Assembly (NCBI RefSeq): GCF_009931435.1
Contig: NZ_CP043414.1
Strand: one strand, 5' to 3'
Source of the DNA: Escherichia coli
GTDB taxonomy: Bacteria > Pseudomonadota > Gammaproteobacteria > Enterobacterales > Enterobacteriaceae
DNA: 64,000 bases
The stretch's first letter is position 1. Each line of letters starts with the position of its first letter. This document shows positions 34,601-37,600 of the stretch, piece by piece. A program made the position numbers.

Positions 34601-37600
34601 TGACCCTGGCGATGATTTTGCTGGCTGTGCCGTTTACCTTTAGTGCCCCGCGTTCGCCTGGGATGGGTAGCCGTCTCGCTGTAGGCGTCATCGTGGGCTT
34701 ACTCACCTGGATCAGCTATCAAATCATGGTCAATCTGGGATTGCTATTTGCGTTGAGCGCACCTGTTACCGCGCTCGGTTTACCGATAGCGTTTATGCTG
34801 GTGGCGTTGAGCCTGGTGTATTGGTATGACAGTCAACATTAAACCCGCCGTGGCGCAGCACCACAGCGGGCTCACATTACTGCTTCAGAGTAGCAAATGC
34901 CTGAATGATGGCATCGATTTGCTCACGAGTGTGGGCAGCGTTTACGCTACAGCGCAGCAGCGTGATGCCTGCAGGCGCGGCAGGTGGCAGGATAAGATTC
35001 ACATAAACGCCCAGCGAAATAAGCTCGCGCCAGATGCGTAAACCTTCCTCTTTCGAACCGATTATTACTGGCACTACCGGGCTAATATGTGAACTTAACT
35101 CGTAACCCAGTTTTTGCAGACCGTCATACAGATGGTTGGCGTTATCCATCAGCTTTTGCCGCAACTCTGGTTGTGAGGCAATGGTTCTTAACGACGAGCG
35201 CACGGTCGCAATGCAGGACGGAGAAGGAGAGGCGGTAAAAATATACGGGCGGCTGCCGTAGCGCAGCACTTCCATCGCTTCCGAACCGACAGCAAAACCG
35301 CCAATCGAGGCCAGACTTTTACTGAAAGTACCAACGATAATATCCACATCATCTTCAACGCCAACGGCTTCAACCAGTCCGCGCCCCGTTGCGCCTAACA
35401 CGCCAAACGAATGTGCTTCATCGACAATCAAATAACCACCAAGACGACGTTTGATATCAACAATTTCTGCCAGCGGCGCAACGTCACCGAGCATACTGTA
35501 GATGCCTTCAACGATGATAATCGCCTCTTTTGCCCGTTCACCGAGGCGAACCATGCGCCGTTCCAGATCTTTAGCATCGTTATGGCGGAAACGAATAATT
35601 TCCGCTCCACCGAGAGAACAGGCGTCATAAATACTGGCGTGGCTGTCGGCATCCAGTAACACTACGGCGTTATGGTCGGCAAGCGCGCTGATGACGCCTA
35701 AATTCGCGGTATAACCGGTTGAAAAAACGATAGCGGAAGGGCGCTTGAAAAACTCGGCAATCTCTTTCTCTAACGCCAGATGCGGCGCATAACTGCCGTT
35801 TGCCATACGAGAACCGGTGGTGCCGGTGCCTTGGGCCGCTAACGCTGCCTGACCTTCGGCGATGGCATCATGATTGAAGGTTAAACCGAGATAATTATTG
35901 GTCCCGGCCAGGATCACGTTTTTATCGCCGATCCGGCCTTCGGTGGCGGAATACACTTCATCAATACAGGTACCAAACGGCGTTAACCCGTTGTCACTAA
36001 ATTGCAGTCGCTCGCCAGCAAGGCGAGCATATTTATCGTATAGCCCCATTATTTATTCTCCAGCCATGGAAGTAGAGTTTCCATTAATTGCGCAGGGGTT
36101 TTGACATCCAGCAGAATATTAATAGGAATGGAAATATCGAATCTGTCTTCCAGCATCATTAAGAGATCCATCACTTTGATCGACTCCAGGCCAAGATCGT
36201 TGACGAGATCGCTGTCGGGCTTAATTTCCACACCGTTTTCGACCAAATCCTGTAAACAGGAAAGGATGTAATCCATTACTATTTCACGATTTACCATAGA
36301 AACGTTAACACACCTTTAAACAAGACAATCAAAATAGCCCGTTGCGTAATGCGTGTTCCAGGCTAATCCCGGGAAACCAATTAATATCTTCAGAAATACG
36401 GTTATTACTTGCCGACCAGTCGGCGTGGGTTAATTCACGGATTTTCGAGCGGGTCAGCATAGGTTCTTTACCTGCCAGGCGACTCAACGCGGTACTGATA
36501 TCCGCAAGGCAGGTGAGTACCGACAGAGGAATACCAACCATTCGAACGGAACCGCAACGGGCGTCGGCGGCAAGTTGCTGTACGCGTTGCCAGTCATAGC
36601 CGCCGGCGACGCCATCGCATAATTCATAGGTTTGCGTCTGTACAGTTTCGGCGCTTAACCACTGCCCCACGGCTTGCGCGAAATCGGTGACGTGCAGGAA
36701 AGAGAGCTGTGTATCTGGCGCACCAAGTCGTGGCAGCAGGCCGCGCAGCATCCAGTCAAACAGCGGTTTTAACTCTTTATCGCCGGGACCATACACGGCT
36801 GTCGGGCGAAAAATGCCCAGCGTAATTTCGTCAGCCATTGCGGTCAGTCGTTGTTCGGCGACGTGTTTGGAATTTGCGTACCAGGAGAGTTCGGGATGGC
36901 GCGCCGCCAGCGAAGAGATAAACAGAAAACGTTGGCAAAAGCCGCTCTCTTTTGCCGCTTGCATCAGGCGCAGGCTGCCGTCAACGTTACATCGGGTAAA
37001 AATCTCTTCTTTGTGTCCGCGCACTTGCCCGGCGCAATGGACCACCGCGCTGGCTCCGGCAACCAGTTCCCTAAGTGAATGTGTATCTTCCAGCGAACCG
37101 CGCACCCAGATGAGATTATCATTGACGTGAGCGCGGGCAGTACGCGTCAATGCGCGAACGTGAAAGCCGCGGGCGAGCAGGTTATCGATAATATATTTAC
37201 CGATAAACCCGGTAGCGCCCGTCACCGCGACAGTTTGATTCATGCCATGGATTCCTGCACATGAAGGCTTGCAGCATAACGTTTTTTCGCTTCCGCACGG
37301 GCAGGCTTGCCGGAGGACGTTCGGGGAATACTGTGGGGCGGCAACAGATCGATAGCCGCTGTTACGCCAAATTCGCTTTGGATCCGTGCTGCCAGTGCGT
37401 GGATAAGCTGCCCACGACGTTCTTCGTCGCTGATCCTACACTGGATCTGCAAAATGATTTTTTCCTGGGCGGTAACAAAAGCAATCGCATCGCCAGAATG
37501 AATTTCCGGTTCCTGTTCCGCAATATATTCAATATCCTGCGGCCAGATATTACGGCCACGAATAATAATCAGATCTTTAATGCGCCCGGTGACATACAGA

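What the first reader, a model, noticed from the sequence alone, without database searches (positions are those of the whole stretch)
34844..34870. Convergent operons meet at a single GC-rich hairpin
The LptG-like gene ends at 34842 and the SPT-like gene ends at 34877, leaving 34 bp containing one 10-bp-stem hairpin. One structure may terminate both transcripts, and convergent transcription into each other could couple expression of the synthesis and export operons.
Basis: seen in the sequence. Interest (0 to 1): 0.25.

Follow-up and report, generated by a model that had tools for sequence, protein, structure and literature searches.

The report
Shared terminator hairpin between convergent operons
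The 34-bp gap between the E. coli sphingolipid-synthesis operon (ending in spt) and the LptF/LptG-like transport operon holds one conserved GC-rich hairpin; it is an ordinary transcript-end signal of a kind common between convergent E. coli genes, and it is better built for the spt strand.

Summary
The lptG-like gene stops at 34842, spt stops at 34877, and the 34-bp gap holds one inverted repeat (34844-34853 / 34861-34870).

The window is E. coli chromosome, from pitB through the yghTSR genes and the sphingolipid locus to yghO and the glc genes. The locus is in about 76% of complete E. coli genomes and is deleted in K-12.

The hairpin is not chance:
- It is single-copy.
- Its arms are nearly invariant in E. 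coli.
- It shows two compensatory pair changes in other Escherichia species.
- Unrelated hairpins occupy the same position after spt in most other genera examined.

The hairpin is asymmetric. The spt-sense RNA forms a 13-16 bp stem (-24 to -27 kcal/mol) followed by UUUAAUGUU. The lptG-sense RNA forms a weaker stem in this window (-15.7 kcal/mol, with a C·A mismatch from a minority G>A allele) and has no U tract.

Six of the seven mapped convergent gene pairs in this window have the same one-hairpin layout. This matches the published class of E. coli bidirectional terminators.

It most likely ends and insulates both operons: in the classical way for spt, and non-canonically or with Rho backup for lptG. 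Expression coupling is untested speculation. Interest is low.

The parts
28367..34842 (+). Probable 7-gene operon: yghS, yghR, long yghQ (MOP-flippase-like), a hypothetical gene, ytfJ-like, lptF-like, lptG-like. It converges on the hairpin.
   Evidence: The ORFs have gaps of -4 to 45 nt. Pfam hits are and RefSeq annotation of strain N96. The operon structure is inferred from spacing only.
33763..34842 (+). lptG-like (LptG2) permease gene, with stop TAA at 34840-34842.
   Evidence: Pfam PF03739, E 2.8e-69. The RefSeq start is equivalent to MNVFSRYL. LptF/G paralogues in the Caulobacter sphingolipid locus are needed for sphingolipid transport.
34843..34876 (.). 34-bp intergenic region between the two stop codons.
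34844..34870 (+). Hairpin as read in lptG-sense RNA: a 5+4 bp stem interrupted by C·A at 34849/34865, a 7-nt loop, -15.7 kcal/mol, followed by CUCACAUUA (no U tract).
   Evidence: The perfect-stem allele in most E. coli gives -21.9 kcal/mol.
34840..34874 (-). Hairpin as read in spt-sense RNA: a core 13-bp stem (34843-34871), extendable to 16 bp, with a 3-nt loop, -24.3 to -27.7 kcal/mol.
34835..34843 (-). U-rich tail UUUAAUGUU of the spt-sense terminator. It overlaps the stop codon and last two codons of lptG.
   Evidence: The T-run criterion of the terminator scan is met only on the - strand.
34877..36049 (-). spt (serine palmitoyltransferase), the last gene of the aasR, cerR-like, acpR, spt operon.
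   Evidence: PMC9386255.
34877..38958 (-). 4-gene sphingolipid synthesis operon: aasR 37240-38958, NAD-epimerase-like reductase 36329-37243, acpR 36049-36297, spt 34877-36049.
   Evidence: The ORFs overlap or abut. Pfam hits are and RefSeq annotation.
35271..35508 (+). C-rich, G-poor stretch (C/G of 2 or more in 78-nt windows) in lptG-sense read-through RNA, antisense to spt. It is a possible Rho loading region, by weak inference only.
   Evidence: offsets +400 to +560 from 34871 have C/G of 2.0-2.55, against a window-wide 95th percentile of 1.71.

Best explanation
The hairpin is the shared 3'-end element of two convergent operons. It acts as a transcription terminator and insulator that keeps RNA polymerase from each operon out of the other.

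For the spt operon (- strand) it has the anatomy of an intrinsic terminator, slightly sub-canonical. It has a 13-bp GC-rich stem and a 3-nt loop, followed at once by UUUAAUGUU.

For the lptF/lptG-like operon (+ strand) the same palindrome gives a stable hairpin but no U tract. The end of that transcript therefore probably depends on one or more of three things: hairpin-induced pausing with head-on RNA polymerase collision (the mechanism proposed for E. coli bidirectional terminators), Rho acting on the untranslated antisense-spt RNA downstream, or exonuclease trimming back to the hairpin.

What is shown: the structure, its conservation and covariation, its strand asymmetry, and how common the layout is. 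What is inferred: that it terminates transcription, and by which route on each strand.
For: - Position: it lies exactly between two stop codons, 1 nt after lptG's and 5-6 nt after spt's.
- Stability: well beyond shuffled sequence on the - strand, and on both strands for the common allele.
- U-rich tail: present only on the - strand.
- Copy number: single copy per genome, so not a dispersed repeat. No Rfam family matches there.
- Conservation within E. coli: the arms are invariant in 10 diverse strains except one G/A site, while the loop varies.
- Covariation across Escherichia species: 96.6% of cells are paired, and two pairs changed on both sides (C-G to U-A in L012; G-C to A-U in E. whittamii L013). 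Only 3 of 500 shuffles reach this.
- Other genera: most of the 33 other spt loci have an unrelated strong hairpin within about 35 nt of the spt stop, whether or not lptG converges there. Compensatory differences are visible within Pseudocitrobacter and Rosenbergiella.
- Strand bias: independently chosen best hairpins are stronger on the spt-sense strand in 21 loci, equal in 3 and weaker in 10 (Wilcoxon p = 0.02, not corrected for phylogeny).
- Local context: 6 of 7 mapped convergent gene pairs in this window have one strong hairpin in a 34-160 bp gap.
- Published class: bidirectional hairpin terminators between convergent E. coli genes.
- Need for insulation: in Caulobacter, losing the LptF2/G2/C2 transporter is lethal unless spt is deleted.
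Against: - There are no transcript 3'-end data for this locus. K-12, the strain used for SEnd-seq and Term-seq, has the locus deleted, and I found no such data for other strains.
- The U tract on the spt side is interrupted (6 of 9 U). Its sequence is also constrained by the lptG stop and last codons.
- On the + strand nothing beyond the hairpin resembles a terminator.
- Both stop codons sit within a ribosome footprint of the stem. From general knowledge, that could reduce hairpin formation during coupled translation.
- Covariation rests on only two events in closely related species.
- Hafnia paralvei, which has the convergent layout, lacks a significant hairpin (z -1.3 to -1.5).
Confidence: 0.72

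Rival explanations
1. It is a unidirectional terminator for spt only. Transcripts of the lptF/lptG-like operon read through the hairpin into antisense spt and are ended later by Rho.
For: Only the - strand has a U-rich tail. In this window the + strand hairpin is 9-12 kcal/mol weaker, with a C·A mismatch. A hairpin follows spt in genera where no lptG converges. The + strand read-through RNA has C-rich, G-poor stretches at +120-200 and +400-560.
Against: In most E. coli the + strand hairpin is perfect and strong (-21.9 kcal/mol, z -4.0). In Pseudocitrobacter and C. youngae the hairpin is as strong or stronger on the lptG-sense strand. Published bidirectional terminators also lack intrinsic-terminator features yet stop both directions.
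Confidence: 0.3
2. It is mainly a 3' stabiliser. The stem-loop protects the ends of both mRNAs from 3'-to-5' exonucleases, and the transcripts are actually terminated elsewhere.
For: Many of the hairpins after spt in other genera have no U tract at all, for example Serratia, Pseudocitrobacter and Pseudomonas. 3'UTR palindromes in E. coli can act as both attenuator and stabiliser (REP325, bioRxiv 10.64898/2026.03.23.713779).
Against: This does not exclude termination. The spt-sense U-rich tail directly after the stem fits termination in place. There are no half-life data.
Confidence: 0.25
3. Leaky convergent transcription across the hairpin produces mutual antisense RNA or polymerase interference that links expression of the synthesis and transport operons.
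For: The collision model ties termination efficiency to the activity of the opposing promoter. Synthesis without transport is toxic in Caulobacter, so some coordination would be useful. The G>A allele weakens only the lptG-sense hairpin.
Against: Interference would make the operons antagonise each other, which is the wrong direction given that toxicity. The convergent layout is absent from most spt-bearing genera. A strong conserved hairpin argues for insulation. The layout is generic for unrelated convergent pairs in this window.
Confidence: 0.08
4. It is a chance palindrome, a mobile-element remnant or a protein-binding operator, with no role as an RNA structure.
For: Perfect 10-bp inverted repeats can bind dimeric regulators. 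Divergence in the lptG 3' end stops at the hairpin in one lineage, which hints at a recombination junction.
Against: Chance expectation is about 0.2% for this gap. It is single copy and matches no REP or Rfam family. Compensatory changes keep the pairing while altering the sequence. The sequence turns over completely between genera while the position is kept, which fits a structure and not a sequence-specific site.
Confidence: 0.03

Closest known systems
Overlapping bidirectional terminators between convergent E. coli gene pairs (Ju et al. 2019 Nat Microbiol; Wang et al., bioRxiv 10.1101/2022.10.23.513370)
   Same: It sits between a convergent gene pair in a short gap, and a single palindromic element encodes a hairpin in both transcripts. 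At least one direction lacks canonical intrinsic-terminator features. Five other convergent pairs in this window look the same.
   Different: No transcript-end, Rho-independence or collision data exist for this locus, and it is absent from the K-12 strain those studies used. Here one direction (spt) does resemble an intrinsic terminator.
Canonical intrinsic (Rho-independent) terminator
   Same: On the spt strand it has a GC-rich 13-bp stem and a short loop, followed at once by a U-rich run at the end of an operon.
   Different: The U tract is interrupted (UUUAAUGUU). The lptG strand has no U tract (CUCACAUUA).
REP elements as 3'UTR terminator/stabiliser elements (REP325, bioRxiv 10.64898/2026.03.23.713779)
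   Same: It is an extragenic palindrome at gene 3' ends, and REPs between convergent genes are reported to affect both neighbours.
   Different: It is single copy per genome, has no resemblance to the REP consensus and gets no naRNA4/REP Rfam hit at this site.

Membership tests
Canonical intrinsic terminator | Stable GC-rich stem-loop at the 3' end of a transcription unit | tested here: met
   The - strand gives -24.3 to -27.7 kcal/mol (z -4.2). The + strand gives -15.7 kcal/mol (z -2.0), or -21.9 for the common allele.
Canonical intrinsic terminator | U-rich tract immediately 3' of the stem, spt-sense (- strand) | tested here: met
   UUUAAUGUU has 6 of 9 U, including 3 next to the stem. It passes the scan's criterion of at least 5 T in 8. 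It is interrupted, so it is sub-canonical.
Canonical intrinsic terminator | U-rich tract immediately 3' of the stem, lptG-sense (+ strand) | tested here: not met
   CUCACAUUA has 3 of 9 U, and the scan makes no + strand call in the gap.
Canonical intrinsic terminator | Transcripts actually end at the site without factors | not testable with these tools
   This needs in vitro transcription or 3'-end mapping.
Bidirectional terminator of convergent gene pairs (Ju 2019 / Wang 2023) | Located between convergent genes, with one element encoding a hairpin on both strands | tested here: met
Bidirectional terminator of convergent gene pairs (Ju 2019 / Wang 2023) | 3' ends of both transcripts map to the element and overlap | not testable with these tools
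   No data exist; K-12 lacks the locus.
Bidirectional terminator of convergent gene pairs (Ju 2019 / Wang 2023) | Independence from Rho and dependence on opposing transcription | not testable with these tools
   This requires bicyclomycin treatment and promoter knock-outs.
REP element | Many dispersed copies per genome with the REP consensus | tested here: not met
   There is one place per genome (median 1) and one match in the window at up to 3 mismatches. Rfam naRNA4 hits 22614-22690 but not this site.
Rho-dependent terminator (backup for the + strand) | Untranslated C-rich, G-poor RNA downstream | tested here: inconclusive
   C/G is 1.69 at +120-200 and 2.0-2.55 at +400-560, against a 95th percentile of 1.71. 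Composition alone does not show Rho action.
Conserved RNA structure | Pairing maintained through compensatory substitutions | tested here: met
   Two pairs changed on both sides and 96.6% of cells are paired; 3 of 500 shuffles reach this; slid controls give 37-52% paired. There are few independent events, so support is modest.

The most novel reading that the evidence does not exclude
The common G/A polymorphism at 34865 acts as a strand-specific switch. It keeps pairing (U·G) in the spt-sense hairpin but breaks it (C·A) in the lptG-sense hairpin. Lineages with the A allele would then let the transport operon read through into antisense spt and damp sphingolipid synthesis. This would be natural variation in operon insulation at a locus where synthesis without export is toxic.
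Probability: 0.07. Interest if true: 0.4.

Novelty: new member of a known kind. Interest (0 to 1): 0.12.

Why it matters
It matters little beyond annotation. The hairpin marks the 3' boundary of the E. coli sphingolipid synthesis operon (aasR, reductase, acpR, spt) and of the neighbouring LptF2/LptG2-type transport operon. That is useful to anyone cloning or expressing these operons, or reading RNA-seq from strains that carry them, such as BL21, UTI89 and most wild E. coli. It is also one more example that convergent E. coli genes usually share a single hairpin. If synthesis without export is as toxic in E. coli as in Caulobacter, good insulation here would have physiological value, but that is inference.

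Tried and rejected
- Chance palindrome: rejected by the shuffles, the Markov background, conservation and covariation.
- REP or other dispersed repeat, or a known RNA family: rejected.
- Protein operator: unlikely, because the sequence turns over while the pairing is kept.
- First comparative hairpin script: it scanned only even lengths and missed the 29- and 35-nt hairpins. I discarded it and replaced it.
- Ju et al. 2019: the paper could not be read. I cite it only through Wang et al..
- 3'-end mapping in strains with the locus: the literature search returned nothing relevant.
- Terminator scoring formulas: I did not apply a published formula (d'Aubenton-Carafa, TransTermHP) because I could only recall it from memory. 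I compared raw features with the other five convergent hairpins in the window instead.
- Cross-genus alignment of the hairpins: not possible, because the sequences are unrelated. Only position and structure are conserved.

Full report
**Observation**

The + strand ORF ends with TAA at 34840-34842. The - strand ORF ends with TAA (TTA on the + strand) at 34877-34879. That leaves a 34-bp gap, 34843-34876.

The gap contains the arms CCCGCCGTGG (34844-34853) and CCACAGCGGG (34861-34870) around a 7-nt loop. In this window the sixth pair (34849/34865) is C·A in the + strand RNA and U·G in the - strand RNA.

Folding results:
- The + strand RNA folds to -15.7 kcal/mol (z about -2.1; 6-7 of 200 shuffles fold as well).
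- The - strand RNA closes two further inner pairs and one outer G·U pair. This gives a 13-bp stem with a 3-nt loop, at -24.3 kcal/mol.
- With flanks the - strand stem extends to 16 bp and -27.7 kcal/mol (z -4.2; 0 of 200 shuffles).

Hairpins of this quality (10-bp arms, at most one mismatch, loop of 3-8, at least 6 GC pairs) occur 13 times in the window. Markov-1 simulations give 3.75 +/- 1.8. One in a given 34-bp gap is therefore not a chance event.

**What the locus is**

The window is E. coli chromosome: pitB, yghT, yghS, yghR, then the locus of interest, then yghO, glcC and glcDEF.

The + strand genes are a long yghQ (Polysacc_synt_3), a hypothetical gene, a YtfJ-family gene, an LptF-like gene and an LptG-like gene.

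The - strand genes are a fatty acyl-AMP ligase (aasR), an NAD-epimerase-like reductase, an acyl carrier protein (acpR) and spt.

The segment is present in 4145 of 5426 complete E. coli genomes. K-12 MG1655 lacks window 30990-39360, which is replaced by an IS5.

The E. coli BL21 Spt, AcpR and AasR have been characterised biochemically as the first steps of sphingolipid synthesis (PMC9386255). LptF/LptG/LptC paralogues in the Caulobacter sphingolipid locus are required for sphingolipid transport, and their loss is lethal unless spt is deleted. That paper draws the E. coli UTI89 locus as homologous (bioRxiv 10.64898/2026.04.12.717747; see also PMC11324152).

**Conservation within E. coli**

In ten E. 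coli strains spanning the identity range, the two arms are invariant except for G/A at the position of 34865. The loop varies (CGCAGCA, CGCAACA, CGCAAACA, CGCAGCG).

Most strains have G, which gives a perfect 10-bp stem: -21.9 kcal/mol on the + strand and -26.5 on the - strand, with z of -4.0 and -6.1. The window's exact 61-mer is found in 63 genomes, and the perfect-stem 61-mer of strain RM9872 in 1064. Only 24 of 4112 genomes differ from the latter by more than about three bases. The element occurs once per genome.

**Covariation in Escherichia**

Across Escherichia species representatives (L011-L014), pairing is kept in 96.6% of cells. Two pairs changed on both sides: C-G to U-A in L012, and G-C to A-U in E. 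whittamii L013. Only 3 of 500 column shuffles reach the observed score, and slid controls give 37-52% paired. This is modest but real evidence for a selected structure.

**Other genera**

A genome-wide scan with Spt returned 34 gammaproteobacterial and related loci. Eleven of them, the window among them, have lptG converging directly on spt: the Escherichia loci, Citrobacter amalonaticus, C. youngae, three Pseudocitrobacter and Hafnia paralvei. In Pluralibacter another gene lies between spt and lptG.

Most loci nevertheless have a strong hairpin within about 35 nt of the spt stop, with unrelated sequence from genus to genus. Compensatory differences are visible within Pseudocitrobacter (U-A to A-U between L016 and L021) and within Rosenbergiella.

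The hairpin is therefore primarily a positional feature of the 3' end of the spt operon, kept through sequence turnover.

- Where lptG converges, the gap holds one hairpin in Escherichia, Pseudocitrobacter and C. youngae.
- C. amalonaticus has two hairpins.
- Hafnia has only a weak long-range stem.

Choosing the best hairpin independently on each strand, the spt-sense one is stronger in 21 loci, equal in 3 and weaker in 10 (Wilcoxon p = 0.02, not corrected for phylogeny).

**Strand asymmetry**

On the - strand the stem is followed at once by UUUAAUGUU (34843 down to 34835), which overlaps the lptG stop and last codons. The consensus scan's T-run criterion is met only on this strand.

On the + strand the stem is followed by CUCACAUUA, so there is no U tract. 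Any read-through + strand RNA is untranslated antisense-spt RNA. It has C-rich, G-poor stretches at +120-200 (C/G 1.69) and +400-560 (C/G 2.0-2.55), against a window-wide 95th percentile of 1.71. That composition would permit Rho loading but does not show it.

**How ordinary it is**

| Convergent pair | Window coordinates of the gene ends | Gap | Hairpin |
|---|---|---|---|
| ygiQ / lpp-like | 3252-3291 | 38 bp | one GC-rich |
| yqhC / yghB | 8161-8201 | 39 bp | one GC-rich |
| exbD / yghA | 11604-11765 | 160 bp | one GC-rich |
| yqhA / gpr | 13334-13374 | 39 bp | one GC-rich |
| pitB / yghT | 27452-27501 | 48 bp | one GC-rich |
| lptG / spt | 34842-34877 | 34 bp | one GC-rich |
| yghO / glcC | 40463-40470 | 6 bp | none strong |

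The five other hairpins range from -17 to -23 kcal/mol, and most lack a good U tract on at least one side.

[quoted passage not shown] Those elements encode a hairpin, do not resemble intrinsic terminators, do not depend on Rho, and are proposed to work through hairpin-induced pausing plus head-on and trailing RNA polymerase collisions (Ju et al. 2019 as summarised by Wang et al., bioRxiv 10.1101/2022.10.23.513370).

**Mechanism, stated with its limits**

The hairpin most likely (about 0.7) ends and insulates both operons. For spt it probably works as a slightly sub-canonical intrinsic terminator. For the lptF/lptG-like operon it probably works as a pause or collision site, as a barrier to 3' trimming, or with Rho backup downstream.

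The structure, conservation, asymmetry and generality are shown. Termination itself is inferred.

A purely unidirectional role (about 0.3) and a mainly stabilising role (about 0.25, not exclusive; compare REP325) remain open.

The coupling idea is unsupported for four reasons:
- Interference would oppose, not coordinate, the two operons.
- The layout is not conserved across spt-bearing genera.
- A strong conserved hairpin argues for insulation.
- The same layout is shared by functionally unrelated gene pairs.

**Novelty and score**

This specific hairpin does not appear to have been described, and K-12-based transcript-end maps cannot contain it. It is nevertheless a routine member of a known class. 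Interest is 0.12.

The least ordinary reading still allowed is that the G/A polymorphism weakens termination on the lptG strand only, and so tunes antisense read-through into spt. I give that a probability of about 0.07.

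Noticed in passing
window 30990-39360: K-12 MG1655 lacks this 8.4-kb stretch: the 3' part of long yghQ, the whole LptF/G-like and spt operons, and the start of yghO. 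An IS5 sits in its place. The laboratory strain therefore has no sphingolipid locus, while about 76% of complete E. coli genomes do.
   Followed up: partly
window 34780-34842 (3' end of lptG): In strains RM9387 and elppa6 the last 60 nt or so of lptG are strongly diverged, yet the hairpin and spt side are identical to other strains. Divergence stops at the stop codon and hairpin, which suggests a recombination breakpoint there.
   Followed up: no
window 34865: There is a G/A polymorphism in the 3' arm. The A allele (this window, SMS-3-5, 17MR471, 2824) keeps a U·G pair in spt-sense RNA but makes a C·A mismatch in lptG-sense RNA.
   Followed up: partly
window 3252-3291, 8161-8201, 11604-11765, 13334-13374, 27452-27501: Five other convergent gene pairs in the window each have a single strong GC-rich hairpin in the gap. 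yghO/glcC (40463-40470, a 6-bp gap) has none.
   Followed up: yes
window 22613-22690: Strain N96 has a 1278-bp IS621 inserted exactly at window 22613/22614. This is directly beside the Rfam naRNA4 (REP-derived) match at 22614-22690, and the window lacks the IS.
   Followed up: partly
L066 (273-bp contig NZ_VLXZ01000209.1): A tiny low-coverage contig in an Alkalicoccobacillus porphyridii assembly is 97.8% identical to window 34713-34985, spanning the hairpin. It is almost certainly E. coli contamination of that assembly.
   Followed up: partly
hit H30 (E. coli KSC64) and L006 (strain 504239): KSC64 has a different deletion that joins the start of lptG to the AMP-binding gene. Strain 504239 has spt annotated as frameshifted. 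Both are signs of recurrent loss of the locus.
   Followed up: no
window 47927-48148 and 5839-5902: Rfam matches at gathering score to the sRNAs C0719 (- strand, downstream of glcB) and ES173 (- strand, between yqhD and yqhC).
   Followed up: no
L015:5174-5263: Citrobacter amalonaticus has a 90-bp spt/lptG gap with two separate hairpins, one next to each gene, instead of one shared hairpin.
   Followed up: partly
L019 and L031: Serratia sp. M24T3 carries two spt loci (80% and 79% identical to the query) on different contigs. Each has its own hairpin after spt.
   Followed up: no
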